DNA of 64,000 nucleotides from a virus (taxonomy: Duplodnaviria; Heunggongvirae; Uroviricota; Caudoviricetes; Crassvirales), in IMG/VR virus record IMGVR_UViG_3300046331_000154, one strand, 5' to 3'. The notes under the pieces are model-generated. The model was not told where the DNA came from and did not search any database. It saw only the letters and a program-made list of their open reading frames with translations. Below, one piece after another: positions 510-62,248 of this stretch. Every line of letters starts with the position of its first letter. Position 1 is the first letter of the stretch. The translations under genes were made by a program, and so were the position numbers.

Positions 510-3500
510 TTATCTATTACTCCAACCGTATTGCTCTTTAGGGGTTGTGTCTAAAAGATGACCATAACCTGGAATTAAATATTTAATCATTTTAGAAGAA
601 GCTTTTGTTATTTTTTCATTTCTATCTTCAGCTAAAGGATTAACATAATTACTTAATGCAGCAATAACATCGGTACTACTCTCTATAAATTTTAACGAAC
701 TAATAGGATTTTTAAGTACTCTCCAAGCTTCACGTGGATCTATAAATTGTTGAGCATCAGATTGATTTCTTCTTGTAATTGCGGCAATATACCAAAAAAC
801 ATCATTATCGTCATCATCTGAAGCTGCACCAGCGGCAAGTAATGCTAAATTTGCCATTACCATAATATATGCTAATTCTGTAAAAGTTCTAACAATATTA
901 CCTTTTTCCCACTCATCCATTTCATTAAAATCTTTAACAATTAATGAAAATTGTAATTTTGCAAGTTTAGGTGCCACACTACGTGTTAAAAATCTCAACC
1001 ATGTAACATAATTTCCTTCATCGGGTCTTAATAAATCTGATTCAAAATTTAAAATAACATCTTCTGGTTTTGAAAAAGCATTTGTACCAAGTCCTCTAAA
1101 TCTACGTAATCCTGGAGATATAATGTGTTTCTTGAAATGTGCCACAGCTTTACCTAAAGTATGACGTTGTAATTCAGATTGATATTCTGTACTATACTGA
1201 CCTTGTGATTTAATTAACGATGATTGAATATAAGATCTTAATGTTGAATTACCACCTTTATTATATTCTGTCATTCTGTCAATTGTAGTGTAAAATGGTG
1301 TTTTAATAGATGTTGTTAATTTACCATTTTCCAATACTGAAATATCTAATATACTTGCAGCGTTTTCTTTAGTTGTAACGTTACCGTTTTTATCTAAATA
1401 ATTACCTTTTTCATCTAATATTTTAGCACCATCTAATATTGTCATTGTGTGAATAGATTGAATCCAATGTTCACCACCTTCTTGCATAAAAAATAAAGGT
1501 TTTGTATTAGTTAATGCTAACGCTTTATTTTTTTCAAAATTATTTTGAATTAAATCAGATGTTACTAAACCTCCAAAAGACATTAATAATTGGTTAGGTA
1601 GTGATTTATAAATATTTCTACCTACATCATCAATAGTATTACCAAGATGTTTAAAGAAGAATATTTCCGCATTTTTAATATTTTTAACACTTAAATTTGG
1701 ATCACTTATTACTTCCAATATAGATTGAACTTTACCACCTATAGCATTTGCAGGTGCTCCAACAAAATTTATAGCTTGTGAAGTTCTTGAAACAACACCT
1801 CTAATAAAACTTTCAATTTTAGCACCATCCGCATTACCAATTTTACCTAAATATGTACTTGTTTTATCGTATAAACGATTGTTCATCATTGTTTCAAGCA
1901 TTTTTATTAAATGTGCATCTTGCTTATCCACAATAACAGGAGAAGTTGTACCATCATTGTTAAAATAAGAAACAACCCGACTACCTAAACCTTGTTTTTT
2001 AATAAAACCATTTTCTTGAATAATATCGATAAATATTTTTAAATCTGTATGTACCTTAGTTTTACTTTTAAATTTAATAGATTGTTGTATTTCCATTGCA
2101 TACATTGTGGCTAAATCTGTAGATTGTTTAGATTTTGGTATTTTACCTCTAAAATGTATAGGAATATAATCTACTTCTTTACCCGATAAATCACGACGAA
2201 CAATGTGAACATTTTTATCATCTACAAAATCTTGTTCTCCTTGTGTTGTATCATCTGTTCTTAATTTAAAAGTATCTTGCCATAATTCTTTAAAAATATC
2301 TTTATTTAAGTTTTTTAAGTGTGTTATAGTTTCTTTATGATGTGATGGTAATTGATAAAAGTCTACACCTAGTGTATTTTTTTTTAGACTTTTGACACTA
2401 ATACCATAATTATCGTTAGCTTCCTTAGCTTGAGATTGTAACACAGCTAAATAATCACGTTCTTTTTGTGTTAATTTAGAAAAATCTGTTTTCCACTGTT
2501 TAGCGGGTTTTGTGATATAATAAGGATTACCGTCTTCATCAAAGTTTTTTATACTGTCTGTATTAAGTTTAAACCAATTACGCATTTTAGATTTTTTTAA
2601 TTTTAATTTATCTTCGTCAGATAAATCTTTACCAAAATCTTCAGCATTCACAGTGTTCATTAATTCATTAAAACTATCTCTAAATCCAATTTGATATTCC
2701 CCTAATAAAAATCCTTCATCATTTTTAGACCATTCAAATAAATTTTTATAATTTTCATCAGAAGACTTAATTCTACTACCATCTAAAAATATATTTGTAG
2801 CTTCTTGAAGTTCTAATAATTTAGGTTGTATTAAATTAGTATATTCATGTTTTACTTTATCTAATATTCTAGAAAATACTCTAATAATAGGATGTGTAAA
2901 ATCTTTTTCACTATTTACTGTAGCACTTAAAGAAGTAATATCTGTTAATGGTGAATCAATTAAATCAAACCATGTTTCATCAGTTTCTTTTTGAATCAAC
3001 TCTCTATTTTCAGATAATTGTTTATTTACATATTCATCAAGTGTTGCTTTAGTTAAACCTTTAGCTTTACCTTCTTGACGAAATTTTTGTTCATATTTTA
3101 ATAATACATCTTTATATTGTTCTTGAAATATTGCAGATTTTCTATTTAATTTTTTAGCAACTTTTAATAATTTTTTATCAATTATTTTAGAATTAGATAT
3201 TAATGCCTCAATTTCTTGATTTAATTTAACATGTTCTTCAGCTGTAATGATATTATTTGTTTCTAGATCTTCAACGGCATTATCTATATGTATTTGTAAT
3301 GATTTAAATGTGTTGTTGTATACTTTTACATTTTCATATTGTTGAGATGTAATATCTACATTAGCTAATATTTTATTAGAAGAATTTAATTGTTCTTCCA
3401 TAAACTTATTAAATATTTTAATACTTTCTAAACGATATTCATCACTGTCTTTAACATATTTGTCTAATAACACATCAATTTCATTTTTAACTGTTTTTAA

Positions 3501-4748
3501 TTTTGTTAAAAACGGTGAATCTTGCATTTGACTTCTATTTGCAATAACTTCTAAATCACTAAATGTTTTTTCAATACTTATGGTAATAGATTGTAAACCT
3601 TTTTTAGCAACTAATTTCTTTTGACCATAAGTATATTTAGCTTCTAATGTATCTATTCCAGTATAATTTTCATCCGTAGTATCTATAAGTCTTAATAAAT
3701 TATTTATTAATTTATTATAGGAATTATCAAGTCCAAATAAATCTCTAAAAAATGCAGTTAACACGTCCCAAAATGATTTTTTAGCATTAATTAATTGTTC
3801 AACTTCAAATTCAAATTGCTTATTACTAAACATTCCTGCAGTAAATTCTTCTAATGAAGACATTTCGTGTGGATATTTATCTTCTAATAATGGTTTTAAG
3901 CCATCATAAACTTTTTTTAAATCATTACGTAGTTTTTGTTCAGTTGCATTCTTAGGAGTCCTTAAAACACGTAATGTTCTATCGTGATATACTTCATGTA
4001 AAAACTTTTCAACACCTTCTTTAACCGATGATACATCACCAAGATTATCTACAGACATTTCGATAGTATTATCTACAGTATTATATTGCATATAAGTATC
4101 TGTAGATTTCATATCTTTAGAATCAACTAATTTAATAGTTGCTTTTGTGGATATAATCATTCTGTGAATTTGTTCAAATTCTTTAGAATTTTTATCAAAT
4201 ATTCCAGTATTTAATATGTTTGATAAAGCTTCTTTAGCTGTTATGTTACGAGGTTCACCTGCAAATATTGTATTTTTAATTTCCTCAGAGTATTCATATC
4301 TAATTTCTTCAGGTGTTTCAATTTTAGTCTTACCAAATTTATCTGTAGTTGTACGAGATACTAAATCATTTAAATTTTTTTTAGACTCAAACAAATAACT
4401 AGGATTTTCGCCCATATCTGCTCTAGAAGTATCTTCAAGTTCTAGTTGTTTAGCTTCTTCAGTTGCTTTTTTAAGTTGGACTTTTTCAATAATTCTAATA
4501 TATTGTTCATATAAAGGTTCAGATATTTTTATTTGAATAGTTCCTGGTAAATCATTATCTGTAGATTTAATATGATTAATAACTCTTTCTTTAAATTTAT
4601 CATTTAAAATTTTAATATTTTCAAAGTCAGTTTTACCAAAGTCTTTTGTAACTTCAGCAAAACCTTCTTTATTTAATTTTGTAATGTTTTTAATATCTCT
4701 ATTTACTACATTATATATTACTTCTTCTACGTCTTTTTTACACGCCAT
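510..4748 (-). CDS. giant virion-associated protein (1412 aa), possibly an ejected cargo protein
   Basis: A long ORF directly downstream of the giant RNAP gene in the same operon. Its size and position match the large cargo proteins that accompany the virion RNAP in crAss-like phages. No catalytic motif was recognised. Confidence 0.45.
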   Translation of the reverse strand: MACKKDVEEVIYNVVNRDIKNITKLNKEGFAEVTKDFGKTDFENIKILNDKFKERVINHIKSTDNDLPGTIQIKISEPLYEQYIRIIEKVQLKKATEEAKQLELEDTSRADMGENPSYLFESKKNLNDLVSRTTTDKFGKTKIETPEEIRYEYSEEIKNTIFAGEPRNITAKEALSNILNTGIFDKNSKEFEQIHRMIISTKATIKLVDSKDMKSTDTYMQYNTVDNTIEMSVDNLGDVSSVKEGVEKFLHEVYHDRTLRVLRTPKNATEQKLRNDLKKVYDGLKPLLEDKYPHEMSSLEEFTAGMFSNKQFEFEVEQLINAKKSFWDVLTAFFRDLFGLDNSYNKLINNLLRLIDTTDENYTGIDTLEAKYTYGQKKLVAKKGLQSITISIEKTFSDLEVIANRSQMQDSPFLTKLKTVKNEIDVLLDKYVKDSDEYRLESIKIFNKFMEEQLNSSNKILANVDITSQQYENVKVYNNTFKSLQIHIDNAVEDLETNNIITAEEHVKLNQEIEALISNSKIIDKKLLKVAKKLNRKSAIFQEQYKDVLLKYEQKFRQEGKAKGLTKATLDEYVNKQLSENRELIQKETDETWFDLIDSPLTDITSLSATVNSEKDFTHPIIRVFSRILDKVKHEYTNLIQPKLLELQEATNIFLDGSRIKSSDENYKNLFEWSKNDEGFLLGEYQIGFRDSFNELMNTVNAEDFGKDLSDEDKLKLKKSKMRNWFKLNTDSIKNFDEDGNPYYITKPAKQWKTDFSKLTQKERDYLAVLQSQAKEANDNYGISVKSLKKNTLGVDFYQLPSHHKETITHLKNLNKDIFKELWQDTFKLRTDDTTQGEQDFVDDKNVHIVRRDLSGKEVDYIPIHFRGKIPKSKQSTDLATMYAMEIQQSIKFKSKTKVHTDLKIFIDIIQENGFIKKQGLGSRVVSYFNNDGTTSPVIVDKQDAHLIKMLETMMNNRLYDKTSTYLGKIGNADGAKIESFIRGVVSRTSQAINFVGAPANAIGGKVQSILEVISDPNLSVKNIKNAEIFFFKHLGNTIDDVGRNIYKSLPNQLLMSFGGLVTSDLIQNNFEKNKALALTNTKPLFFMQEGGEHWIQSIHTMTILDGAKILDEKGNYLDKNGNVTTKENAASILDISVLENGKLTTSIKTPFYTTIDRMTEYNKGGNSTLRSYIQSSLIKSQGQYSTEYQSELQRHTLGKAVAHFKKHIISPGLRRFRGLGTNAFSKPEDVILNFESDLLRPDEGNYVTWLRFLTRSVAPKLAKLQFSLIVKDFNEMDEWEKGNIVRTFTELAYIMVMANLALLAAGAASDDDDNDVFWYIAAITRRNQSDAQQFIDPREAWRVLKNPISSLKFIESSTDVIAALSNYVNPLAEDRNEKITKASSKMIKYLIPGYGHLLDTTPKEQYGWSNR

Positions 4749-46482: not shown

Positions 46483-49400
46483 CTAATCATTGAATATTGT
46501 TTTATATTTTTCTTGTGAAGATATTGATTTATTACCGTAGAGTTTTTCAAAAAATTTACTATCCGTCCAAGAATTTTTAGTTTTAACTTCTTGTTTACGT
46601 AATGATTGTTGTTGTCTAAGTCTATCTTCTCTTAATATAAACAACATACCCATTGCAGAAACTCTGTCAAAGTTACCATCAGCATTCCACACAATACACT
46701 CTTCTAAATAACCTAACGATCTAATAGTGTGTAAATTAAGTTTTTTAGTTTCACCATCTACGTGATATGCTTCACTTAACATCCAACTTACTTGTAGTTG
46801 TCTACCCCAAGCATTAACTGGTTTAGTTGCTCTAGTACCTTTAGGATTAGACATAGATGGTTTTAACATATCCATATCTTTAAGTATTTCTGGTGTATCT
46901 GCTAAATAATGTAACGCATTTTTATGTTTAAAATATGTATGCAATCCTTTTAGATTGTTTTCATAATTTATTTGTGCATTATAAAAAATACTTAATTTAA
47001 GTGCTATTTCGTAACACTGTTCTGCTTTAGGATATCTACCTGTATATTCCGCAACGATCCTATCTGTTAACATATCCATTATTTGAATACTAAATAATGA
47101 TGTTCCATCATCTGCATCAATAGGGTCAATACCTCCAATATATCTACCTGTTTGTATTCTATTATCTGCACCACGCTTAGGGAGTTCAAATATTTCTACA
47201 GCACCTATTCTATTTTTTCCGGGATCATTTGTTCTAATAGGTCTTAAATCAGCATTGGGAATCCACTTAACACCTTCAACTTGATCGTGTACTAATTCAC
47301 CAACATAATGTTGTGATAAAAATCTTTGTTCTTCAGGTTTAATACTATTTAAATAATCCACTAAGTCTGCTACAGGAAATATTGTACCCTCTACACGCAT
47401 TATTGCTTCTTGTGGTGTAATAGGTTTCTCCGCTCTAGCTTGTGTTAATGCTGCAGGGTCAGATGCATTTTTAGCAATCTTGTGTCTATTTTCTATAATT
47501 TCAATTAATGCTTTAATAACATCTGGTTCACCAGATTCCATATCATAACATCTATGTCTATTCATATAAGCTCCCCAAAAGAATCCACATTTATTAGAAC
47601 TTTGTACGTTTTTATCATATACATTTTCTACTGAATAAATATTATAAGCATCGGGATTATAAAATAATTTTTTAGAACCTTCAAATGAAGCACCTTCCGT
47701 ACCTCCTGTATTATGTGTAATTATACCATTTCCAATATAGGTGTTTGTTTTACCCGCAGTTAAATTATATACAGGTTGTGATCCAATATTTTCAATTTTA
47801 ATAATTTTTTCAAAACATATACCTTTTAAATGAGACGCTTTTCCAGATTTTTTATTTTTATATAATTCTTTAAAAGAATTTAACCTTGTTTGCTTTTCTT
47901 TAGGATATAATGATATATGTTTTACAAAATTCAACACACTATCTTTATCTTTTATTTCTAATTCATAATGACCATTTTTACTTTTAATATTATTTAAATT
48001 AGGTTTTTTAAAATTAATATTTCCATGAATACCTAATTTTTGTAATAAAAGTTGCATTTCTAATAAAAGATTTTTATATGCACAACTTAAAGATATAACT
48101 CCATTTTTAGATATATATCCATCAGTATCAAAAAATCCACCTATTAGTTCGGTAATTGTTTTATATGAATAAGAATGAATATTGACAGGTAGTGTTTTTC
48201 TATTACAAGTTTGACCGTATATTCCAATGTCTCTAAGTTTTTTACAAATACCTTTTATTCTATTTTCTTCATAAGTTTTATTTAATTTTGTAACATATGT
48301 TTTTTCTGTTATAACATCTTCACTTAAATTATAGTGTAAATAATTATTAATTTCAGACTCACAATTAGCCAACACAGGTGTTTTATTAATACCGTAACTA
48401 CCATCTCCAATTAACCACCCTACAACACGAGGTTCCCACATTTTTTTATTTGAAAAAATAGGTACTTCTTCAATTGTTGCAACTTGATCATTTAATTGTA
48501 ATAAACCAGCTTTTTTAAATTCTATTTTTTTTAAAGATTGTCTTTTTCTTACACCATTTACATATCCTAATTCTTTCATTTTTTTTAAAGATTTATGACT
48601 ATATAGTATAGGATGATCTAAACTGCATTCTATAAAACGCCCAGTATTAGTTTCAATTCTTAGACATTCTTTATTTGTTGGTGGTTGCCAATAAGTAATA
48701 TTTTCTTGAGAAATTATACCGTCTTTTTCATTAAAACCTAAAATATTATTTTTAATATTTAAATCTTTAATACTTACCAAATTACCTAAACCATCCCACA
48801 CTTGATTATTTTCTGTTAAACATCCTCCTGCCATCATAAATCCAAATGATGAACTACCCGATTCTACAGCTTCTCTATTAACTCCCCAAGCTGTTTCTAA
48901 ATCAGGAAACAAACCATCTTCCTCATATTGTATAAAAGGTCCACGAATACCCCTAGCTTTCTCAGGATTATCTTTTAATGATATTGCATTAACAGACGAT
49001 AACAATCCTTTACGATTACCAAATTTATCTACATACCCTAATTGAACTTCCATCGATCTTAACGAATTTGTAAGTCTAATTCTAGGAAGAGGTGTATTGT
49101 CTGCAATCCAGTCAAGATTATCAATAACTTTACCAAACATTCCTTTATCTCCTAATAAAAATGTTTTTTCAGAAGCTAAATGAAAATTAACATTACCTGA
49201 ACCTGGAAAAATATACATATTACATGGTGATATAGCACCTGCTTTAAAACTCCAACCACAACCCCTTGTCTTTAATAATTTACCGTGTTGACCCTCTTGT
49301 CTTGCCTGATCTACATAATGATAAAATAAATAATCACCTAACCAAGGTTTAGGAAAATCTTTCTTACGTTCAGATTTTTGACGACGTTTATTTTGATTAT

Positions 49401-49872
49401 TGTTAGCATTTTCTTCTACAAGCCATATTTTAGAATAGTTCCAATAGAAATATAAATATCCAGGAATCCATTCTCCATCAATAGGTCTAACTAACCCCTC
49501 TTTCCAACGTCTACACTCTTCTTTCCAAAATAATGCATATTCAGATCTAGGATTAGGGTTAGGTGTTATATTTGTATATCTATTATTTTTTTCATAAAAT
49601 ATAGCACGTTCTCTAAAAAAATCTAAATCTTCTAATATGTGAGGCTTAGTTATATCTACAATAATTCTATCGTCATCATATGTTTTAGTTTCGTCAGAAT
49701 CATCTAAACTAGAATATCTAATTTTATCTTTAGCATAACCACGTTGTGATTCAGACGATACAAGATGTTTAATAAAAGGTATAGTTTCTATATATTCTAT
49801 TAATTCGTCTCGTACTTTTTCTGGTAAATCTTCAGGAATATTAGATTGATATTTGTTAAAAACCATCTTCAA
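46483..49872 (-). CDS. terminase large subunit interrupted by an intein (1129 aa precursor)
   Basis: The C-terminal extein carries the terminase nuclease-type motif YIGGIDPIDADDGTSLFSIQIMD. The internal 371-aa element has the intein hallmarks described under feature 47710-48822. Confidence 0.7.
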   Translation of the reverse strand: MKMVFNKYQSNIPEDLPEKVRDELIEYIETIPFIKHLVSSESQRGYAKDKIRYSSLDDSDETKTYDDDRIIVDITKPHILEDLDFFRERAIFYEKNNRYTNITPNPNPRSEYALFWKEECRRWKEGLVRPIDGEWIPGYLYFYWNYSKIWLVEENANNNQNKRRQKSERKKDFPKPWLGDYLFYHYVDQARQEGQHGKLLKTRGCGWSFKAGAISPCNMYIFPGSGNVNFHLASEKTFLLGDKGMFGKVIDNLDWIADNTPLPRIRLTNSLRSMEVQLGYVDKFGNRKGLLSSVNAISLKDNPEKARGIRGPFIQYEEDGLFPDLETAWGVNREAVESGSSSFGFMMAGGCLTENNQVWDGLGNLVSIKDLNIKNNILGFNEKDGIISQENITYWQPPTNKECLRIETNTGRFIECSLDHPILYSHKSLKKMKELGYVNGVRKRQSLKKIEFKKAGLLQLNDQVATIEEVPIFSNKKMWEPRVVGWLIGDGSYGINKTPVLANCESEINNYLHYNLSEDVITEKTYVTKLNKTYEENRIKGICKKLRDIGIYGQTCNRKTLPVNIHSYSYKTITELIGGFFDTDGYISKNGVISLSCAYKNLLLEMQLLLQKLGIHGNINFKKPNLNNIKSKNGHYELEIKDKDSVLNFVKHISLYPKEKQTRLNSFKELYKNKKSGKASHLKGICFEKIIKIENIGSQPVYNLTAGKTNTYIGNGIITHNTGGTEGASFEGSKKLFYNPDAYNIYSVENVYDKNVQSSNKCGFFWGAYMNRHRCYDMESGEPDVIKALIEIIENRHKIAKNASDPAALTQARAEKPITPQEAIMRVEGTIFPVADLVDYLNSIKPEEQRFLSQHYVGELVHDQVEGVKWIPNADLRPIRTNDPGKNRIGAVEIFELPKRGADNRIQTGRYIGGIDPIDADDGTSLFSIQIMDMLTDRIVAEYTGRYPKAEQCYEIALKLSIFYNAQINYENNLKGLHTYFKHKNALHYLADTPEILKDMDMLKPSMSNPKGTRATKPVNAWGRQLQVSWMLSEAYHVDGETKKLNLHTIRSLGYLEECIVWNADGNFDRVSAMGMLFILREDRLRQQQSLRKQEVKTKNSWTDSKFFEKLYGNKSISSQEKYKTIFND
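47710..48822 (-). mobile_element. intein (371 aa) with a LAGLIDADG homing endonuclease, inserted in the terminase large subunit
   Basis: The N-terminal splice junction is ...FMMAGG|CLTENNQ and the C-terminal junction is ...GIITHN|TGGTEGA, giving Cys1 and His-Asn followed by Thr+1. Two dodecapeptide motifs are present: VGWLIGDGSYG and IGGFFDTDGYIS. Confidence 0.75.
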
Positions 49873-55712: not shown

Positions 55713-55766
55713 AACAATCTAAAACACAAATAAACACTATTCACCGAAGTAGAGTAAGTGTGTGTT

Positions 55767-55806
55767 AAAACAGTCAGTGATAATTATTATTGACTGTTTT
55801 TTTTAA
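55767..55806 (+). terminator. rho-independent terminator
   Basis: aaaacagtca-(loop)-tgactgtttt stem followed by T8. Confidence 0.65.
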
Positions 55807-56060
55807 ATAATACAAATCACTTGCTTGAAGATAAACAATAATATCCAAAACTTAAAAATAAGTACATCCATATATCAATTGGTAGATTTGGGGATATTAT
55901 AAAACTGTACTAGCAGTTGTGTTTATTGTAAAGATATTTATATCCCAACGCTCCGATATGTAGGAGATTGATATTATAAGTTAATTACTTATAATTGATA
56001 GTATGAATATTCCACTAGAATTTGGACAAGTGATTTTTTAATAATTAAACAAACAATATT

Positions 56061-56192
56061 ATGAACAGAAATAAAATAGAACAATTTATTCTTTCACAAG
56101 AACATTGTAAACATCCAAATAGAATATTTGTAATAACAATATTATTTGTAGTATTATTTACTATATTAATATTAATACTAAACAAATATTAA
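56061..56192 (+). CDS. tiny membrane protein (43 aa), speculative
   Basis: ATG...TAA encoding MNRNKIEQF...ITILFVVLFTILILILNKY with a C-terminal transmembrane helix. Below the ORF-track length cut-off. Confidence 0.2.
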   Translation: MNRNKIEQFILSQEHCKHPNRIFVITILFVVLFTILILILNKY

Positions 56193-56923
56193 AATATCCT
56201 GTTCTTTTATGGTGTGAACAAAAAGCAAACCGTTGACTTATTGGTTAAAGTAATCATTTGTTTTAGTTATTTATCAGATAAATAACGGATAATACACAAA
56301 TCATCAGTAATTAGTTGATATGTATTATAACATATTATTATGACGGAAAAATAATAATATTTAAATATTATGAGTGATAATTATATTATAAATGTGTACA
56401 AACCTGTTATATGTAATTATCTAAACCTTTGAAAAGCCTTTAACGCTAAGTAAATCTTATAATATTGTGAAATTCAAAACTATAACAATAGGTATTGTTA
56501 TAACTGTATAGTCAGTTATTATTATAGGTTAAACATTGAATACCTTTGTAAATAGGCTGGTACTGCAACCTGAATATCAGTGGAGAGCGTAGTAATTTAT
56601 ATAAAGATACTATCAGTAATGGTAGATGTGTTGTTCCCTTGAGAAAGGAATAATTAAAGTAATAGGTGGGCGACATAATGTTATAAGGGTAATAGAGATA
56701 TTATCTAATGAGCCATAATAAGAGAATGTCTATCAACATAAATGAGTTCTCAGCAAGTAGTTAATGAAAAGTTACGGAACAAAAGATATATTGACCTATT
56801 AACTACGTGACCCTACTCTTATTAGTATTAAACGCATCAGAAATGGTTCCCCAAAAGCGTGATGGGTATTAATAAGAAAGAGGGTGCTAATAAAACAAAT
56901 TAACAATTTTAAAAACAGATGTC

Positions 56924-58398: not shown

Positions 58399-59019
58399 AT
58401 GGCTGCAAAATTTTCAGGTTTTAATGATTGGACTGGTGAATTTAATTATTCTGAAATTATTGATAATCCTATACATTCAGATGAGAATGGTAATTCAAGT
58501 AATCAAAAATGGGAAAATTACAAAGAAATACAAACATCAGAAATTCAACATTTGTTACCCGTAAAACATCCTGATTTAATAAATAACATTAATGATTTTC
58601 CCGAAGAAAGTTGTTATTTTGATGATGATGATGTTTTACTTAATTATTTAATTAAAAATAATTACACACGAAAGTATATATCTCCTGAAAAATCTAAAAT
58701 TAATCAATATTTAAAATGGGATTGCTTTCAATATTGGTATATTACACTTGAATCTTTATATGTTAAAAATTACACAACACGACAAATAAATCAATTAATT
58801 AATTATAACACAAATCAAAATGGAAAAAACACTTTACAGTCAGTTGAGACAGAAAACTCAAGACCAAATCACATTGGAACAATTGCAATACGACGAGGAA
58901 AACAACAAATTACAGTTGGAAACAGACCTAACGGCAACAAAACGGTCGTTAAAATTGGAAGAACAGAAATTAATTCAATTAAAATCTGCAAAAACATTGT
59001 CCAGTCAGCAAATTATTAA
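58399..59019 (+). CDS. hypothetical protein, upstream frame of a probable frameshifted gene (206 aa)
   Basis: ORF in frame 1. Its last roughly 200 nt overlap the frame-2 ORF 58820-59092. Confidence 0.35.
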   Translation: MAAKFSGFNDWTGEFNYSEIIDNPIHSDENGNSSNQKWENYKEIQTSEIQHLLPVKHPDLINNINDFPEESCYFDDDDVLLNYLIKNNYTRKYISPEKSKINQYLKWDCFQYWYITLESLYVKNYTTRQINQLINYNTNQNGKNTLQSVETENSRPNHIGTIAIRRGKQQITVGNRPNGNKTVVKIGRTEINSIKICKNIVQSANY

Positions 59020-59092
59020 TCAATTAGATTTAATTGAAGGTTTAGAAAAAGGTATTATTACTTTAGAATCTTTAATTAAAGAGTTGTTTTAA
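58820..59092 (+). CDS. coiled-coil segment; downstream frame of a probable frameshifted gene
   Basis: Heptad-like sequence (LEQLQYDEENNKLQLETDLTATKRSLKLEEQKLIQLKSAK). It ends 11 nt before a perfect hairpin. Confidence 0.35.
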   Translation: MEKTLYSQLRQKTQDQITLEQLQYDEENNKLQLETDLTATKRSLKLEEQKLIQLKSAKTLSSQQIINQLDLIEGLEKGIITLESLIKELF

Positions 59093-59101
59093 ATAATATA
59101 A

Positions 59102-59138
59102 AATTCACCATTTGTTAATTAATGATAAATGGTGAATT
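59102..59138. terminator. perfect 12-bp hairpin (aattcaccattt / aaatggtgaatt), a terminator-like structure
   Basis: Perfect inverted repeat with a 13-nt loop. It is flanked by an A-run on + and so a U-run on the minus-strand RNA. Confidence 0.45.
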
Positions 59139-59335
59139 AAAAAATATATAACTATGAATTGGAAACTATTTGGAATTACTATTTACAATGTAACTATAAT
59201 TCCTTGTTATTATGACATAATTAGATATAAAAAAAATATAAATGTATTTGCAATAAAACATTTAAATATTATTAGATTTACAACAATAATACACAGATAC
59301 AAACAAATATTTGATCCATATTTAATTTAAACATT

Positions 59336-59617
59336 ATGACAATAAACAAATTAGGGTATAATATACCAAGCACATTTCAAATTATTAAATCTATTGATAA
59401 TAATTCACCAAAAATGTTACAAGTACATAAAGATGAATTTAATAGAACAAAGCAATTATTTGAAAGTAAAACATACTTGTCAAAACCATACACGGATTAC
59501 ATTCAAATGTTATATATTAAATATATAGCAAATGATATTAAAATTATTCAATCAAATGTTAATGTTATTCATCAACATATTGGTATAAAAATGTTAAACA
59601 AAATAGCACTGACATAG
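59336..59617 (+). CDS. hypothetical protein (93 aa)
   Basis: ORF followed by a strong terminator. Confidence 0.4.
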   Translation: MTINKLGYNIPSTFQIIKSIDNNSPKMLQVHKDEFNRTKQLFESKTYLSKPYTDYIQMLYIKYIANDIKIIQSNVNVIHQHIGIKMLNKIALT

Positions 59618-59674
59618 ACAGAAGTTTTTGAAGAAGCGTATCATATAGTAAGTTTTAGTTTGATGCAAAAATAA

Positions 59675-59709
59675 ACCACTGGAATTAATAATTAGTTCTA
59701 GTGGTTTTT
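59675..59709 (+). terminator. rho-independent terminator
   Basis: A 10-bp stem accactggaa / ttctagtggt (one G-U pair) followed by T5. Confidence 0.65.
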
Positions 59710-59719
59710 AATAATTAAG

Positions 59720-60174
59720 GGGGTGACTGGTATTGATCAGTGCATAATAAGTATATAATTCAGCAGAAGTAGGTGAAAGATAGTTAAATCTATCAAATTG
59801 AAATGACAAAAATCAAATCGTTACCAATATGCAAGTAGTTCATAACATCTTAAATGGTGGAATTGGAGTTAAAACAGAAATGTTGATTGCTGCATAATTA
59901 AATGATGAAAAAAGCATCGTAGTAGTCACAATTAAAATTACATCAGGATGCTTGAAAGACCCGAAACAACGTAACTATGTAAGGTATCGCCCTGTAGTAA
60001 AGCCTCTTGTAGTGAAGCTGTAATGTAATTTTAACTCATATTAAGAGTATAAAAAGTACAGTCCACATTTAGTATTATTTAAGGGACATTAAAGATTAAA
60101 ATATACAAAAAGCTGTATAAAATTATATATTAAAAGTAAATGAGAAAGGAGTTCGACTCTCCTCACCTCCACTA
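59720..60174 (+). ncRNA. ssrA: candidate tmRNA (transfer-messenger RNA)
   Basis: The 5' GGGGGUG (59720-59726) can pair with the 3' CACCUCC (60164-70), giving a 7-bp acceptor stem with a G3:U70 wobble and discriminator A. A T-arm AGGAG-UUCGACU-CUCCU lies immediately 5' of the acceptor strand. The 5' segment UAUAUAAUUCAGC (59762-74) is complementary to GCUG and AAUUAUAUA (60105-31), as a P2 helix would be. An internal frame ...GGA AUU GGA GUU AAA ACA GAA AUG UUG AUU GCU GCA UAA (59858-99) ends in LIAA-stop like a proteolysis tag. CCA is not encoded. Confidence 0.45.
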
Positions 60175-60177
60175 AAG

Positions 60178-60221
60178 CATAAATAGTTCCTATTAACAAA
60201 CGGTGTGTATTACTATTCGCT
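60178..60221 (+). repeat. 44-bp direct repeat, copy A (cataaatagttcctattaacaaacggtgtgtattactattcgct)
   Basis: Matches 60432-60475 at 41/44 positions. It begins 4 nt after the candidate tmRNA 3' end. Confidence 0.8.
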
Positions 60222-60293
60222 TTAACAAATGACATAAAAACTTCCTAATCTAAAATTTCTAATTTAATTAGTTTTCGTCATTTATTTCAACCT

Positions 60294-60321
60294 TAAATAG
60301 TATTTCCTATTTAAACAAATC
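60294..60321 (+). repeat. degenerate third copy of the repeat core (taaatagtatttcctatttaaacaaatc)
   Basis: Shares the aaatag-TTCCTATT-aacaaa core with copies A and B. Confidence 0.45.
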
Positions 60322-60431
60322 AATTTAAAAAGTATAAAATATTTATTTTATAAATTATCATTATTAGCATTTATTAATACTCGCTAGATAATAAAGGTAT
60401 TAAATATTTATATTTTGCTTAAACTTAAATC

Positions 60432-60475
60432 TTAATTATGACATAAATAGTTCCTATTAACAAACAATGTGTATT
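60432..60475 (+). repeat. 44-bp direct repeat, copy B (cataaatagttcctattaacaaacaatgtgtattactattcgtt); candidate promoter of the 573-aa gene
   Basis: It ends 51 bp upstream of the ATG at 60527. An upstream TGACA resembles the TGACA...TTCCTAAT motifs at 53298, 54490 and 60236. Confidence 0.8.
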
Positions 60476-60526
60476 ACTATTCGTTATAATTAAGATTTTT
60501 TATTATTTAACTAAAAACAAAATCAT

Positions 60527-62248
60527 ATGTCCACAATTAAATTATTTAACAAAGCTATTCAAGGAAATGAAATATCATTTTCAGAATTAAATAAAATTGC
60601 AACACCATTAGGATATTTAATACATCCTGATTGTTGTACAAATCAAGTTCTTGAATTTTTAAAAGAACAGCCTAAAAACTATAATGCAACATTTTATAGT
60701 TCTTGGAATGATATAATATCTAAAAATAAATTTGAATTATATTTAGATCAAATTAGACATTATTCATCAACTTACGGTACAGATTTTCAAGATACACCTT
60801 GGATACCAAATAATAATATTGAAATAATATCATTTAAAGATTTAAAAATAATATTACCTATTACAATTGAAGAACTAAATGATAAATGTTGTCAAATGTT
60901 ATATTCGGGTATTGCATTAAATCAAGATACATTAAATATTTTAATTGAAAATATTACAAATATTGATATTTCTAAAATTAAAAATAAAGAATCTTTAATG
61001 TATTTTTGTAAAGCTAAAAATGAATTACCTTTAAATAATGTTGAATTTGTTAGATATTTAATATATTTAGCAACAAATAAAACATTGTTAATTAAAGATA
61101 AATCTACAATTGATAGTTTAAAATTATCAAACTTAAAAATATCAGAAATGATAAATAAATTTGGTATTAAATCATTATCTGAAATATTCTTTAGATTTAA
61201 ACCTATATTTTTAGCATTAAAAAAAGGTAATGAATCTACTATTAACTCTTTACGTAAATTAGCTAATACTAATCACAAACCTATGAAATTAGGATTTTTT
61301 GAAGAAATATTATCTAATCTAGATCTTATTCAATACTTACCAGAAAAATTAAAAGAATGTAATAATTTTAAAAAAATACAATTATTACAAACAATATCTA
61401 TTCGTCGTAAAAAATTAGATTTAAAATTTTTTGGAATAAGAAATGGTAAACTATTTGTCAAAGAAGAAAAATCTAAATATCTTCAGCAATACAGTATAAT
61501 ATATGATATTGTTTATAAGTCATTAATTGAATCTTTAAAATCTAAAGCTACTTCAATTAAAATACCTAATAATATCGATATTACACTACCTATTAGTGAA
61601 AAATCATTTATTGGTAATTATCCATTAGGTACATCTTTTGATTTATCAAATAAAGATGCTATTGTAGGTATTCATTGGGATAATAATAGTGGTGCAAATG
61701 ATTTAGATTTGAGTTTAACAGATTTATCTGGTTATAAAATAGGATGGAATAGTGATTATAAAAATGATAACAATTCTATCATATATTCTGGTGATGTGAC
61801 ATCACCTCAACCAGAAGCAGTTGAATTAATGTATGCTTCAAATGGATTTGAACCATCTATTGTAAAAGTTAATTTATATTCAGGAAATAATAATTCTAAA
61901 TTTAAATTATTTTTAGCTACAGAATTTATAACAAATATGAAAAAAAATTATATGGTCAATCCAAATAATATTCAATTTTCAATTGATTGTGTTATGGATA
62001 GTAAAGAAAAATCTGTTGCTATAATTACAGAAAATAAATTAATTCTTGCACAATTTCGTACAGGAAATAAAATTGTAGCTGGTGATTCTATTACTAACAA
62101 ATATATTGAATATTCTTTAAATATTCAAGATTGTTATTTAAATTTAAAAACTGTTTTAACAGATGCTGGATTTACAATTAACAAAGGTAATGAATTAATA
62201 GATTTAACAAATTTATCTAAAGATACATTAATAAATTTGTTAAATTAA
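60527..62248 (+). CDS. hypothetical protein (573 aa)
   Basis: A long ORF with no recognisable NTPase, integrase or reverse-transcriptase motifs. Confidence 0.5.
   Translation: MSTIKLFNKAIQGNEISFSELNKIATPLGYLIHPDCCTNQVLEFLKEQPKNYNATFYSSWNDIISKNKFELYLDQIRHYSSTYGTDFQDTPWIPNNNIEIISFKDLKIILPITIEELNDKCCQMLYSGIALNQDTLNILIENITNIDISKIKNKESLMYFCKAKNELPLNNVEFVRYLIYLATNKTLLIKDKSTIDSLKLSNLKISEMINKFGIKSLSEIFFRFKPIFLALKKGNESTINSLRKLANTNHKPMKLGFFEEILSNLDLIQYLPEKLKECNNFKKIQLLQTISIRRKKLDLKFFGIRNGKLFVKEEKSKYLQQYSIIYDIVYKSLIESLKSKATSIKIPNNIDITLPISEKSFIGNYPLGTSFDLSNKDAIVGIHWDNNSGANDLDLSLTDLSGYKIGWNSDYKNDNNSIIYSGDVTSPQPEAVELMYASNGFEPSIVKVNLYSGNNNSKFKLFLATEFITNMKKNYMVNPNNIQFSIDCVMDSKEKSVAIITENKLILAQFRTGNKIVAGDSITNKYIEYSLNIQDCYLNLKTVLTDAGFTINKGNELIDLTNLSKDTLINLLN

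What the first reader, a model, noticed from the sequence alone, without database searches (positions are those of the whole stretch)
59720..60174. Candidate phage-encoded tmRNA with a G3:U70 acceptor stem and an atypical tag (...LIAA*)
The sequence shows four tmRNA hallmarks at the right spacing: an acceptor stem GGGGGUG/CACCUCC with the alanine-identity G3:U70 pair, a canonical T-arm abutting the 3' acceptor strand, a long-range P2-like helix, and an internal tag frame ending Ala-Ala-stop. It sits in an ORF-free stretch immediately after a strong terminator. tmRNA genes are rare in phages. The tag (GIGVKTEMLIAA) differs from the Bacteroidota ...NYALAA type, which argues for a divergent, phage-adapted ssrA rather than a captured host copy.
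Basis: partly seen in the sequence, partly recalled or inferred. Interest (0 to 1): 0.7.

Follow-up and report, generated by a model that had tools for sequence, protein, structure and literature searches.

The report
Divergent tmRNA gene in crAss-like phage
The flagged stretch is a real but very divergent transfer-messenger RNA (ribosome-rescue RNA) gene in a crAss-like phage; it belongs to a phage-only lineage with an unusually long, conserved tag peptide, which standard detectors miss in about a third of members.

Summary
Confirmed. Window 59719-60171 (+) is a 453-nt one-piece tmRNA gene in a crAss-like phage; its major capsid protein is 59.6% identical to that of Cellulophaga phage phi14:2. 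ARAGORN finds nothing. Rfam RF00023 scores only 18.7 bits against a cutoff of 47, and only on the 3' T-arm. However, a profile of more than 70 distinct phage tmRNAs, built without the window, matches it end to end (E=1e-17 to 1e-21). Typical family members pass both ARAGORN and the Rfam cutoff. In 64 distinct sequences the acceptor stem, T-stem and P2 helices covary, and G3:U70 is invariant. The tag frame shows coding constraint. The usual PK1 pseudoknot is replaced by a covarying hairpin, and a PK4-like pseudoknot is supported. The lineage's PK1 motif occurs in one contig among 185,579 bacterial species genomes, so this is not a captured host copy or an att remnant. Phage tmRNAs are known, including in Crassvirales (cr106_1 is annotated; phi14:2 is not). 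I rate it a new, divergent member of a known kind. In passing I found a conserved structured non-coding RNA at 56520-56906. It is homologous to a phi14:2 intergenic region reported as an abundant lncRNA of unknown function.

The parts
59719..60171 (+). Whole tmRNA gene: 453 nt up to the discriminator A. The next bases are CUA, so CCA is not encoded.
   Evidence: A family HMM built without the window matches 59719-60171 over HMM positions 1-352, E=9.6e-21. Coordinates. GC is 31%, against about 26% locally.
59719..59725 (+). Acceptor stem, 5' strand, GGGGGUG. G3 forms the alanine-identity G3:U70 pair.
   Evidence: It pairs with 60164-60170. In 64 distinct family sequences, pairs 4-7 covary (GC/CG/AU/UA) and G3:U70 is present 64/64.
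59728..59736 (+). D-loop-like segment UGGUAUUGA. It carries the GG that normally contacts the T-loop.
   Evidence: G11, G12, U15 and U16 are invariant or nearly invariant in alignment A1. It matches the Rfam consensus GGaUUCGA in relatives.
59737..59743 (+). P2a helix, 5' strand (UCA..UGC). It pairs with 60136-60143 (GUAAAUGA).
   Evidence: The three base pairs at the foot of the helix covary among the closest relatives: UCA/UGA (window), UAC/GUA (L198), UUC/GAA (L194). Family-wide, helix 2 is 77% paired and all 9 pairs show changes on both sides.
59750..59764 (+). P2 main helix, 5' strand: AGUAUAUAAUU followed by CAGC.
   Evidence: It pairs with 60121-60131 and 60112-60115. The main helix is 81% paired and all 14 pairs covary. 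CAGC/GCUG is 100% paired, with CAGU/ACUG in 4 sequences. The minimum-free-energy fold recovers it.
59771..59778 (+). Conserved single-stranded AGGUGAAA motif (family consensus CUAAGGUGAA). Its role is unknown; it resembles a Shine-Dalgarno sequence.
   Evidence: Nearly invariant in A1. It stays the same while acceptor stems vary, so it does not pair with the acceptor.
59779..59794 (+). Hairpin GAUAG-UUAAAU-CUAUC just upstream of the resume codon. It takes the place of PK1 in this sub-lineage.
   Evidence: The stem covaries: GAUAG/CUAUC (window), GUUAC/GUAAC (L194, L210, L197), GUUCA/UGAAC (L198). The minimum-free-energy fold recovers it.
59802..59897 (+). Messenger part. The -1 triplet AAU is 59802-59804 and the resume codon GAC is 59805-59807. 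Thirty codons encode DKNQIVTNMQVVHNILNGGIGVKTEMLIAA. The stop UAA is 59895-59897.
   Evidence: The frame is open from the conserved (U/A)AAU|G(G/A)C site to AA-stop in all 73 distinct members. Rfam aligns its consensus resume site UAAuU|GCa to UAAAU|GGC of L073. ARAGORN calls the same start in L210 and L123. Third-codon-position entropy is 16.2, against 10.0 and 7.9 for positions 1 and 2. Synonymous codon differences are 39% in frame, against 12% and 7% in the other frames.
59912..59953 (+). Predicted hairpin (AAGCAUC...GAUGCUU) in the variable central domain, the region where PK2/PK3 normally lie.
   Evidence: Supported only by the energy-based fold. This 59899-60033 stretch has no homologue in relatives, and on its own it is no more stable than shuffled sequence (z=-0.8).
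60034..60048 (+). Conserved hairpin ACUC-AUAUUAA-GAGU.
   Evidence: The same position holds ACUC/GAGU in L198, ACUCUA/UAGAGU in L194 and AUUC/GAAU in L210.
60061..60106 (+). PK4-like H-type pseudoknot. Stem 1 is GUCC 60061-60064 with GGAC 60084-60087. Stem 2 is GUAUUAUUUAA 60072-60082 with UUAAAAUAUAC 60096-60106.
   Evidence: In 7 distinct sequences, 92.4% of cells are paired, against 33-50% when the partner is slid. Four pairs have changes on both sides.
60112..60143 (+). 3' strands of P2: GCUG, a UAUAA bulge, AAUUAUAUAUU, then GUAAAUGA.
   Evidence: See the 5' strands above. AAGCUGUAUAAA is invariant in A1.
60144..60171 (+). Spacer GAA, T-arm AGGAG-UUCGACU-CUCCU (60147-60163), acceptor 3' strand CACCUCC (60164-60170), discriminator A (60171).
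   Evidence: Rfam RF00023 aligns this part (18.7 bits). The T-stem is 100% paired in 64 sequences and all 5 pairs covary. The spacer is GAA here, whereas its last base is C in the other 63 sequences.
59640..59718 (+). Conserved upstream region: a covarying hairpin (GUAUCA...UGAUGC, about 59639-59665), then a terminator-like hairpin 59673-59707 with a U-run, ending 11 nt before the tmRNA.
   Evidence: 86-92% identical over 111-120 nt to L210, L192, L217 and L197; L198 matches 72 nt at 89%. Both stems covary. The fold gives -18.4 kcal/mol, z=-6.7. Whether it is a terminator, a leader or a small RNA is not resolved.

Best explanation
Window 59719-60171 (+) is a functional one-piece tmRNA (ssrA) gene carried by a lytic crAss-like phage of Flavobacteriia-type hosts. 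It belongs to a phage-specific tmRNA lineage.

What the sequence and comparisons show:
- an alanine-type tRNA-like domain (G3:U70, A73, T-arm);
- P2 helices and a PK4-like pseudoknot, all with covariation;
- an internal reading frame under amino-acid-level constraint.

Inferred mechanism, from the established trans-translation pathway:
1. The precursor is cut by host RNase P at G59719 and trimmed at the 3' end.
2. The host CCA-adding enzyme adds CCA, and host AlaRS charges the RNA with alanine.
3. Host SmpB and EF-Tu deliver it to ribosomes stalled on broken or stop-less mRNAs.
4. Translation resumes on GAC 59805. The nascent chain receives Ala plus DKNQIVTNMQVVHNILNGGIGVKTEMLIAA, and the ribosome is released at UAA 59895.
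5. The C-terminal hydrophobic-Ala-Ala end then probably targets the product to host proteases.

The likely benefit to the phage is extra ribosome-rescue capacity during infection, when host mRNA decay or RNA-cutting defences stall ribosomes. The conserved 13-residue core, Q-(V/I)-x-A-N-M-x-x-V-(F/H)-(S/N)-(L/I)-(L/I), suggests recognition by a specific partner such as a protease or adaptor. That partner is unknown.
For: Homology:
- A family HMM built without the window matches it end to end, E=9.6e-21, or 2.5e-17 without L125 as well.
- Typical members pass Rfam RF00023 (L073 84 bits, L022 83.6, L030 81.4, FpV4 58.2; cutoff 47).
- ARAGORN of 73 distinct members.

Structure:
- In 64 distinct sequences, 87.9% of cells are paired, against 69.3% in shuffles and 38-48% when slid.
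- The acceptor and T-stems are 100% paired with many compensatory changes, and G3:U70 is 64/64.
- The PK4-like pseudoknot is supported.
- The pre-resume hairpin and the base of P2a covary among the closest relatives.
- The full-length fold recovers the acceptor stem, T-arm, P2 and the hairpin, z=-2.06.

Tag:
- The frame is open in all 73 members.
- The resume site agrees with the Rfam alignment and with ARAGORN calls in L210 and L123.
- The codon-position pattern and the excess of synonymous differences are specific to this frame.

Phage origin:
- The window encodes a Crass_capsid protein (E=1.5e-168), a portal protein and a large terminase.
- Its major capsid protein is 59.6% identical to that of phi14:2.
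- tmRNA-bearing contigs encode crAss-type portal and terminase proteins and show local synteny.
- The family motif is found once in 185,579 bacterial species genomes.

Expression of a homologue (inference):
- The phi14:2 tmRNA (4031-4502, + strand) lies in the CDS-free stretch between g004 and g006.
Against: - ARAGORN finds nothing, even at lowered thresholds.
- Rfam gives no hit at the gathering score, and only an 18.7-bit partial hit.
- The canonical PK1 is absent. It is replaced by a simple hairpin, a change shared with L194 and L198.
- The base just before the T-stem is A, whereas all 63 other sequences have C. This could weaken the tRNA-like fold.
- The central 59899-60033 domain has no homologue and is no more stable than shuffled sequence.
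- No near-identical copy was found in the viral or metagenome collections, so window-specific features cannot be checked for conservation.
- No promoter was identified, and a strong terminator-like hairpin ends 11 nt upstream.
- No SmpB gene was found among the neighbouring ORFs tested, so the RNA must rely on the host protein.
- Expression, alanine charging and tagging have not been tested for this phage.
Confidence: 0.87

Rival explanations
1. It is an att-site remnant: only the 3' tRNA-like fragment of a host ssrA gene, left by or used for integration, with the rest resembling tmRNA by chance.
For: Rfam aligns only the 3' T-arm and acceptor strand. Many viral contigs carry tmRNA 3' ends. 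A 48-nt direct repeat starts 7 nt after the 3' end.
Against: Homology runs the full length, HMM positions 1-352. The 5' acceptor strand covaries with the 3' strand across the family. The tag frame is conserved. The window is a crAss-like phage, and no integrase was seen among the ORFs scanned. The 48-nt repeat is not found in any related locus.
Confidence: 0.01
2. It is a recently captured host ssrA copy, so the tag and structure simply reflect the host's own tmRNA.
For: The 5' end, the resume context AAU|G(G/A)C and the group I intron site in relatives (T-loop subsite 3, reported only from class Bacteroidia; PMC11915505) point to a Bacteroidota origin for the lineage.
Against: The family's PK1 motif occurs in one contig among 185,579 bacterial species genomes; that contig is a 4.9-kb piece of a MAG from the same metagenome as viral locus L162. 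More than 100 viral contigs carry the lineage. Tags are 29-50 aa with a conserved core, whereas the commonest tmRNA tag length is 10 aa (PMC11915505). Bacteroidota host tags are about 9 aa by my recollection (unverified). Local synteny is conserved in related phages.
Confidence: 0.03
3. It is a decaying or non-tagging tmRNA. It may act as a decoy that competes with host tmRNA, as reported for the CDS-less tmRNA of mycobacteriophage DS6A, or it may be a pseudogene.
For: It departs from every other member at the base before the T-stem. PK1 is lost. It carries a unique 135-nt central insert with no detectable structure. Both detectors fail. The DS6A precedent is described in PMC11915505.
Against: The acceptor stem, G3:U70, A73, T-arm, P2, PK4, resume context, 30 open codons and the AA-stop are all intact. 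The PK1-to-hairpin change is shared with L194 and L198, and that hairpin covaries. Differences from L198 inside the tag are mostly synonymous.
Confidence: 0.08
4. It is an ordinary small protein-coding gene (MQVVHNILNGG... starting at the conserved AUG) that lies next to a tRNA-like element by chance.
For: A conserved in-frame AUG lies at 59829-59831. An AGGUGA motif lies upstream at 59771-59776.
Against: Amino-acid-level constraint extends upstream of the AUG, over the Q-(V/I)-x-A-N codons. The AGGUGA motif is 52 nt from that AUG. The frame lies inside a covarying long-range helix system that closes with a tRNA-like domain.
Confidence: 0.01

Closest known systems
Standard one-piece bacterial tmRNA (Rfam RF00023; trans-translation with SmpB)
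   Same: Alanine-type acceptor stem with G3:U70 and A73. T-arm with a UUCGA loop. D-loop-like GG. Long P2 helix. A resume codon preceded by an A-rich (U)AAAU context. A tag ending in hydrophobic-Ala-Ala plus stop. A pseudoknot just before the 3' strand of P2.
   Different: It scores 18.7 bits against the gathering score of 47, and ARAGORN misses it. PK1 is replaced by a hairpin. The tag is 30 aa, against a commonest length of 10 aa (PMC11915505). GC is 31%. The central domain is unique. CCA is not encoded. The gene is carried by a lytic-type phage.
tmRNAs of flavobacterial phages: Cellulophaga phage Calle (annotated; PMC8776804), phi38:1 and phi40:1, Flavobacterium psychrophilum phages of the FpV4 group, Cellulophaga phage phi14:2
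   Same: Same lineage by sequence. They share the 5' domain, the AAGCUGUAUAAA/P2 arrangement and the long tag with the ANM..V..(L/I)(L/I) core. phi14:2 and the FpV4 group also share crAss-type capsid proteins with the window phage.
   Different: The window copy is only about 70-87% identical to its nearest relatives. Together with L194 and L198 it lacks the CAGAGAGAUAACUG hairpin and carries a different pre-resume hairpin. In GenBank the FpV4-group and phi14:2 copies are unannotated or overlaid by 'hypothetical protein' ORFs.
tmRNAs of human-gut Crassvirales (cr106_1, annotated 'transfer-messenger RNA, SsrA'; cr128_1; Kehishuvirus 'tikkala')
   Same: Same viral order and, to judge by the capsid protein, the same Steigviridae/Asinivirinae neighbourhood. 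The 3' half is homologous to the family profile (E=1.9e-13 and 4.5e-12).
   Different: The gut copies have short tags: DNTYRVAA (ARAGORN call for cr106_1) and GNTYRAAA (my reading of cr128_1). cr128_1 carries a group I intron in the T-loop (86 bits).
Other phage-encoded tmRNAs (for example two-piece tmRNAs of pelagiphages and phage Melnitz; mycobacteriophage tmRNAs)
   Same: A rare accessory translation gene in virulent phages: 402 of 18,146 phage genomes (PMC9004378). The roles proposed there also apply here: keeping the hijacked translation machinery running, or tagging proteins for recycling.
   Different: Those copies resemble the tmRNA type of their hosts' lineages (permuted two-piece, or actinobacterial). 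This one is one-piece, and its lineage is essentially absent from bacterial genomes.
Long ssrA tags of Mollicutes, recognised by Lon rather than ClpXP (recalled from memory: Gur and Sauer 2008; not checked here)
   Same: A long tag (about 27 aa) that begins with Asp-Lys-Asn and is AT-rich. It is a precedent for long tags carrying a recognition element for a particular protease.
   Different: There is no sequence homology beyond the first residues. The Mollicute tags end in FA, not AA. This comparison is a lead, not a test.

Membership tests
tmRNA (ssrA), standard one-piece form | A 7-bp acceptor stem joining the 5' and 3' ends, with the alanine identity pair G3:U70 and discriminator A73 | tested here: met
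   GGGGGUG pairs with CACCUCC, followed by A. G3:U70 is 64/64, and pairs 4-7 covary across the family.
tmRNA (ssrA), standard one-piece form | A T-arm (5-bp stem, 7-nt UUCGAnU-type loop) directly 5' of the acceptor 3' strand, and a D-loop-like GG segment | tested here: met
   AGGAG-UUCGACU-CUCCU at 60147-60163. The stem is 100% paired and all 5 pairs covary. UGGUAUUGA lies at 59728-59736. The spacer base before the stem is A instead of the otherwise universal C.
tmRNA (ssrA), standard one-piece form | A long-range P2 helix connecting the tRNA-like domain to the rest of the molecule | tested here: met
   Three helix segments; 77%, 81% and 100% of cells are paired, and 24 of 27 pairs change on both sides.
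tmRNA (ssrA), standard one-piece form | An internal tag reading frame with no start codon, entered at a resume codon after an A-rich context, ending in a hydrophobic-Ala-Ala degron and a stop | tested here: met
   UGAAAU|GAC ... UUG AUU GCU GCA UAA. The frame is open in 73/73 members. Coding-type substitution pattern. The resume site agrees with the Rfam alignment of L073.
tmRNA (ssrA), standard one-piece form | Pseudoknot PK1 between P2 and the resume codon | tested here: not met
   The window, L194 and L198 have a single covarying hairpin (59779-59794) and no second stem. Most family members have only a 3-4-bp hairpin (CAG...CUG) here, and I found no pairing partner for a second stem. From memory, PK1 of E. 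coli can be replaced by a hairpin (Tanner et al. 2006; not checked here).
tmRNA (ssrA), standard one-piece form | Pseudoknots PK2-PK4 downstream of the tag | tested here: inconclusive
   A PK4-like pseudoknot at 60061-60106 is supported. The region 59899-60033 gives only energy-based hairpins, with no homologues and z=-0.8.
tmRNA (ssrA), standard one-piece form | Score at or above the Rfam RF00023 gathering threshold, or detection by ARAGORN | tested here: not met
   18.7 bits against 47, and no ARAGORN call. Relatives pass, at 58-84 bits. phi14:2 scores 46.0.
tmRNA (ssrA), standard one-piece form | Charging with alanine, SmpB and EF-Tu binding, and tagging of stalled nascent chains | not testable with these tools
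   This needs biochemistry or proteomics. No SmpB gene was found among 18 window ORFs scanned against Pfam.
Flavobacterial/crAss-like phage tmRNA lineage (defined here) | Full-length profile homology, the AAGCUGUAUAAA/CAGC P2b motif, the AAGGUGAA motif, and a long tag with the Q(V/I)xANMxxV(F/H)(S/N)(L/I)(L/I) core | tested here: met
   The window tag contains QIVTNMQVVHNIL.

The most novel reading that the evidence does not exclude
The long, conserved tag (29-50 aa, phage-specific core ANMxxV(F/H)x(L/I)(L/I)) may not be just a generic degradation signal. It may be a phage-evolved address that hands tagged nascent chains to a particular partner, either a specific host protease or a phage factor. 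The tmRNA may also work with the conserved structured RNA that usually lies 90-230 nt upstream of it (56520-56906 in this window), as a two-RNA early and persistent 'translation takeover' module of aquatic crAss-like phages. If so, the two abundant phi14:2 'long non-coding RNAs of unknown function' would be this pair.
Probability: 0.2. Interest if true: 0.75.

Novelty: new member of a known kind. Interest (0 to 1): 0.45.

Why it matters
1. It shows that ARAGORN and Rfam miss about a third of a widespread phage tmRNA lineage. The missed copies include those of cultured, experimentally tractable phages (the FpV4 group). The phi14:2 copy falls just below the Rfam threshold and is overlaid by 'hypothetical protein' ORFs in GenBank. 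Counts of phage tmRNAs are therefore too low for AT-rich phages.

2. It defines a phage-only tmRNA lineage whose tag is three to five times the usual length and is under purifying selection. That makes a concrete question testable: what does a virulent phage gain from tagging stalled chains with its own peptide? phi14:2 in Cellulophaga and FpV4 in Flavobacterium psychrophilum are ready experimental systems.

3. It probably identifies one of the two abundant phi14:2 'lncRNAs of unknown function' as the tmRNA. It also provides homologues and a covariation-supported core structure for the other.

Tried and rejected
- ARAGORN in default mode and with thresholds lowered to 95, 80 and 60% gave nothing, or at 60% only meaningless permuted calls.
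- Rfam at gathering thresholds gave nothing. In E-value mode it gave only a partial 3' hit.
- BLAST of 59000-61000 against GenBank phages found no match.
- Exact-pattern scans for near-identical copies of the window's 5' and 3' ends found none in the viral or metagenome collections.
- A canonical PK1: I looked for a second stem involving the AGAGAUAA loop or the AAGGUGAA motif and found no covarying partner. AAGGUGAA does not pair with the acceptor 3' strand, because it stays constant while acceptor stems change.
- A D-arm-like hairpin ACUGGU/AUCAGU predicted by the energy fold was rejected, because it is not conserved in L198 or L194.
- The tag peptides have no Pfam or PHROG match.
- The 48-nt direct repeat after the gene was considered as an att or target-site duplication. 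It occurs only here and not in relatives, so it gives no support for integration.
- I did not build a covariance model of the full family. The alignment exceeds the 400-column limit, and a 320-position model would exceed the calibration time limit.
- Literature searches found no description of Crassvirales tmRNA beyond tool mentions and annotation counts. The 2023 Crassvirales review held in the library does not contain the word tmRNA.
Full report
**1. The observation**

- A 7-bp acceptor stem, GGGGGUG with CACCUCC, carrying G3:U70, G2:C71 and discriminator A.
- A T-arm, AGGAG-UUCGACU-CUCCU, directly before the 3' acceptor strand.
- A long-range helix: AGUAUAUAAUU+CAGC pairs with GCUG+(UAUAA bulge)+AAUUAUAUAUU.
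- An internal frame ending GCU GCA UAA.

The hairpin just upstream (59673-59707) folds at -18.4 kcal/mol, z=-6.7, and is followed by a U-run. The stretch 59618-60526 has no ORF of 40 aa or more apart from a 48-aa ORF on the opposite strand.

The standard detectors fail.
- ARAGORN finds no tRNA or tmRNA in the whole window, and none in the region even at relaxed thresholds.
- Rfam has no hit at gathering scores.
- In E-value mode RF00023 aligns only the T-arm and 3' acceptor strand (60083-60174, 18.7 bits against a cutoff of 47).

**2. What the window is**

The window has 21-37% GC in 2-kb windows, mostly about 25%. It encodes a Crassvirus major capsid protein (PF23898, E=1.5e-168), a crAss-type portal protein and a large terminase. 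It also has a run of very large ORFs (1412, 2524 and 1460 aa).

The closest GenBank capsid protein is that of Cellulophaga phage phi14:2 (59.6% identity). Gut crAss-like phages and the Flavobacterium psychrophilum FpV4 group follow. The window is therefore part of an aquatic crAss-like phage that probably infects Flavobacteriia.

**3. Relatives**

A scan of viral contigs for the 3' end returned many tmRNA 3' ends. Among the low-GC contigs, ARAGORN called standard tmRNAs whose tags (ENAQVRANMTVVHNILNGEVSASREVELAVAA, DNAQIEANMNKVFSLLREEVAVAA and others) are clearly homologous to the window's frame ...NQIVTNMQVVHNILNGG....

Two family-specific scans brought in more.
- A P2/T-arm pattern found 74 loci.
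- A degenerate tag-core pattern found 46 loci.

These loci held full-length copies wherever the contig end allowed, 317-474 nt long and 73 distinct in all.

Evidence that links the window to accepted tmRNAs:
- An HMM of the family built without the window hits only 59719-60171 in the 64-kb window, end to end, with E=9.6e-21. Without the closest relative L125 as well, E=2.5e-17.
- Typical members pass the Rfam tmRNA gathering score over the full model: L073 84 bits, L022 83.6, L030 81.4, FpV4 58.2.
- ARAGORN recognises 49 of the 73 and misses 24. The misses include the window, FpV4, L125, L194 and L198.

The window copy is therefore a divergent member of a bona fide tmRNA lineage. Its nearest relatives (L198, L125, L192, L194) are about 70-87% identical. 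No near-identical copy exists in the viral or metagenome collections. A further metagenome scan found three more copies of the family, two of them identical.

**4. Structure**

I cut each sequence at fixed anchors into the acceptor, P2a, P2 main, CAGC/GCUG and T-arm modules and counted pairs on 64 distinct sequences (alignment A3).

| Measure | Value |
|---|---|
| Cells forming standard pairs | 87.9% |
| Same, column shuffles | 69.3% (0 of 500 shuffles reach the observed value) |
| Same, 3' partner slid 1-3 columns | 38-48% |
| Pairs with changes on both sides | 33 of 39 |
| Acceptor stem, T-stem | 100% paired |
| G3:U70 | invariant (64/64) |

Acceptor pairs 4-7 switch among GC, CG, AU and UA. 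Examples are GGGGCUA/UAGCUCC, GGGCUCG/CGAGUCC and GGGAGUG/CACUUCC.

Caveat: for the loci found through the tag pattern, I located the 3' acceptor strand by requiring complementarity to the 5' strand. I chose a 6- or 7-nt T-loop by best pairing. The 100% figures therefore partly follow from how the alignment was built. The position of the 3' strand immediately after the T-stem was not forced.

Features specific to the window's sub-lineage also covary.
- Base of P2a: UCA/UGA in the window, UAC/GUA in L198, UUC/GAA in L194.
- Hairpin before the resume codon: GAUAG/CUAUC, GUUAC/GUAAC, GUUCA/UGAAC.
- H-type pseudoknot at 60061-60106, just before the 3' strand of P2: 92.4% paired in seven distinct sequences, against 33-50% when slid, with four pairs changing on both sides.

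The full-length energy fold recovers the acceptor stem, T-arm, the 11-bp P2 helix and the pre-resume hairpin (z=-2.06).

Some features are not canonical.
- PK1 is absent. Most of the family has a short CAG...CUG hairpin plus a conserved single-stranded CUAAGGUGAA. The window, L194 and L198 have lost that hairpin and carry a different one.
- The 135 nt at 59899-60033 have no homologue, and the post-tag region containing them (59896-60112) is not unusually stable (z=-0.8).
- The base before the T-stem is A, where the other 63 sequences have C.

**5. The tag**

In every member the frame is open from a conserved (U/A)AAU|G(G/A)C site to Ala-Ala-stop. Rfam aligns its consensus resume site to exactly this position in L073. 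ARAGORN picks it in L210 and L123.

In the window the -1 triplet is AAU 59802-59804 and the resume codon is GAC 59805-59807. The tag is DKNQIVTNMQVVHNILNGGIGVKTEMLIAA (30 aa) and the stop is UAA 59895-59897.

To test for coding constraint I used only the members that were found through their 3' ends, so the test set was chosen without reference to the tag. A 16-codon block gave these values.

| Measure | Tag frame | Other frames |
|---|---|---|
| Summed entropy at codon positions 1, 2, 3 | 10.0, 7.9, 16.2 | not computed |
| Differing codons that are synonymous | 39% | 12% and 7% |

The constraint extends upstream of the conserved AUG. This argues for entry at the resume codon rather than ordinary initiation.

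Tag lengths measured from the resume site are mostly 29-50 aa, with a median of 35. The commonest tmRNA tag is 10 aa (PMC11915505). The homologous tmRNAs of gut crAss-like phages have short tags: DNTYRVAA in cr106_1 and GNTYRAAA in cr128_1. The long tag is therefore a feature of the aquatic branch.

**6. Phage gene, host copy or att remnant?**

- The family's PK1 motif occurs in one contig among 185,579 bacterial and archaeal species genomes. That contig is a 4.9-kb piece of a Flavobacteriales MAG from the same metagenome as viral locus L162.
- tmRNA-bearing contigs encode crAss-type portal and terminase proteins next to the gene. The small ORF upstream of the window's tmRNA (59336-59617) has homologues in several related loci; in L197 its homologue lies about 250 nt upstream of the tmRNA.
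- Full-length conservation excludes an att fragment.
- None of the 18 window ORFs scanned against Pfam matched SmpB, so the RNA must use host SmpB, AlaRS, EF-Tu, RNase P and the CCA-adding enzyme (inference).

**7. What is already known**

- Phage tmRNAs are rare but known: 402 of 18,146 phage genomes (PMC9004378).
- Within this lineage, Cellulophaga phage Calle is annotated with one tmRNA (PMC8776804).
- Maribacter phage Panino also has an annotated tmRNA, but it matches the family only over 34 nt at the 3' end.
- Gut crAss-like phage cr106_1 carries an annotated 'transfer-messenger RNA, SsrA'.
- phi14:2, the crAss-like model phage, has a copy at 4031-4502. ARAGORN finds it and Rfam scores it 46.0, just under the cutoff. 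GenBank overlays it with hypothetical ORFs, which RefSeq has since removed.
- The FpV4-group copies are unannotated, and ARAGORN misses them.
- I found no paper in the library that discusses tmRNA as a feature of Crassvirales.

I therefore class the window's gene as a new, divergent member of a known kind.

**8. Link to published expression data (inference)**

Drobysheva et al. (bioRxiv 10.1101/2020.03.07.982082) report two long intergenic regions of phi14:2, the g004-g005 and g005-g006 junctions. [quoted passage not shown] They are present from the earliest time point and do not decline later. [quoted passage not shown]

In RefSeq, g004 ends at 2904 and g006 starts at 4602, and there is no CDS between them. 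The tmRNA occupies 4031-4502 on the + strand. The coordinates of g005 are not available to me, so the assignment is probable rather than proven.

**9. Mechanism and rivals**

The best-supported reading is a working tmRNA that adds ribosome-rescue capacity during infection and tags the rescued chains with a phage-specific peptide ending in a ClpXP-type hydrophobic-Ala-Ala terminus. The conserved core of the tag implies a specific binding partner, which is unknown.

| Rival | My confidence |
|---|---|
| att remnant | 0.01 |
| Recently captured host copy | 0.03 |
| Decaying or decoy tmRNA | 0.08 |
| Ordinary small ORF | 0.01 |

The decoy/decay rival is the only one the data leave seriously open. 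The reasons are the unique C-to-A change before the T-stem, the loss of PK1 and the lack of close relatives to test conservation.

**10. Side findings**

- A conserved structured RNA lies at 56520-56906 (+), inside an ORF-free stretch. It has blocks of 25-57 nt at 92-100% identity in many tmRNA-bearing phages. In most of them it lies 90-230 nt upstream of the tmRNA. In phi14:2 the blocks map to 2906-3364, directly after g004, which is the other reported lncRNA region. RNAalifold finds helices, 14 of 31 pairs with compensatory changes. Rfam has no match at E up to 1.
- About 110-120 nt upstream of the tmRNA are 86-92% identical in L210, L192, L217 and L197; L198 matches a shorter stretch (72 nt, 89%). 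The region contains two covarying hairpins.
- Relatives L203 and cr128_1 carry group I introns in the tmRNA T-loop after the second loop base (95 and 86 bits). This matches the subsite reported only for class Bacteroidia (PMC11915505).

Noticed in passing
window 56520-56906 (+), within the ORF-free stretch 55713-56923: A conserved structured non-coding element. Five blocks (56520-56554, 56596-56652, 56734-56765, 56797-56826, 56870-56906) are 92-100% identical to many tmRNA-bearing phage loci. In most loci the element lies 90-230 nt upstream of the tmRNA on the same strand. In phi14:2 the blocks map to 2906-3364, the g004-g005 junction reported as a highly expressed lncRNA of unknown function. 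RNAalifold finds covarying helices (14 of 31 pairs with compensatory changes), and the loops UAAACAUUGA and CCUUGAGAAAG are invariant. Rfam has no match at E up to 1. It is a candidate new RNA class.
   Followed up: partly
window 59600-59718 (+): About 110-120 nt upstream of the tmRNA are 86-92% identical in L210, L192, L217 and L197; L198 matches 72 nt at 89%. This is more conserved than the tmRNA itself. The region holds two hairpins with compensatory changes: GUAUCA...UGAUGC, and the terminator-like 59673-59707. It could be a small RNA, a leader or processing signal, or a terminator. No tmRNA promoter was identified.
   Followed up: partly
window 60178-60225 and 60442-60489 (+): A 48-nt direct repeat (92% identical, 264 nt apart) starts 7 nt after the tmRNA 3' end, in the ORF-free gap before the 573-aa ORF at 60527. 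It occurs nowhere else in the window and in none of the related loci. Its function is unknown.
   Followed up: partly
window 46483-49872 (-): The large terminase ORF (1129 aa) contains an intein with a LAGLIDADG endonuclease (Pfam Intein_splicing and LAGLIDADG_3, roughly residues 366-721). The homologue in L199 aligns to residues 5-337 and 729-1129 only, so it lacks the insert.
   Followed up: partly
L203 10151-10375; L219 (cr128_1, MT774392) 1599-1868; also L187, L197, L207: The tmRNA genes of several related phages, including the human-gut crAss-like phage cr128_1, are interrupted after the second T-loop base. In L203 and cr128_1 the insert is a group I intron (Rfam RF00028, 95.3 and 86.1 bits). 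In L187, L197 and L207 the T-loop is interrupted at the same point, but no intron hit was obtained. The cr128_1 tmRNA is unannotated in GenBank.
   Followed up: partly
L220/L222 (Cellulophaga phage phi14:2, KC821624/NC_021806) 4031-4502; L121 (Flavobacterium phage FpV4, KT876724) locus 4001-4412: Cultured phages carry unannotated members of this tmRNA family. In phi14:2 the gene is overlaid by three 'hypothetical protein' ORFs in GenBank. In FpV4 and 28 related records nothing is annotated, and ARAGORN misses the gene.
   Followed up: yes
L194/L206 and L208/L216 tmRNA T-loops: Two sub-lineages have the T-loop GGCAGAG or GGCAGUA instead of UUCGAnU. They also have an altered D-loop-like segment (GAAACAGUAUUGA instead of GACUGGUUUUGA). 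This looks like a coupled change in the tertiary D-loop/T-loop contact.
   Followed up: no
window 59771-59778 and the family consensus CUAAGGUGAA: A nearly invariant, apparently unpaired AAGGUGA motif lies 13 nt before the resume codon, or 26 nt with the intervening hairpin in the window. It is complementary to the 3' end of 16S rRNA (anti-Shine-Dalgarno sequence). Its role is unknown.
   Followed up: no
window 60144-60146: The spacer before the T-stem is GAA. The other 63 distinct family sequences end this spacer with C (GAC, CAC, UAC or AAC). This is either a lineage-specific change or a mildly damaging one.
   Followed up: no
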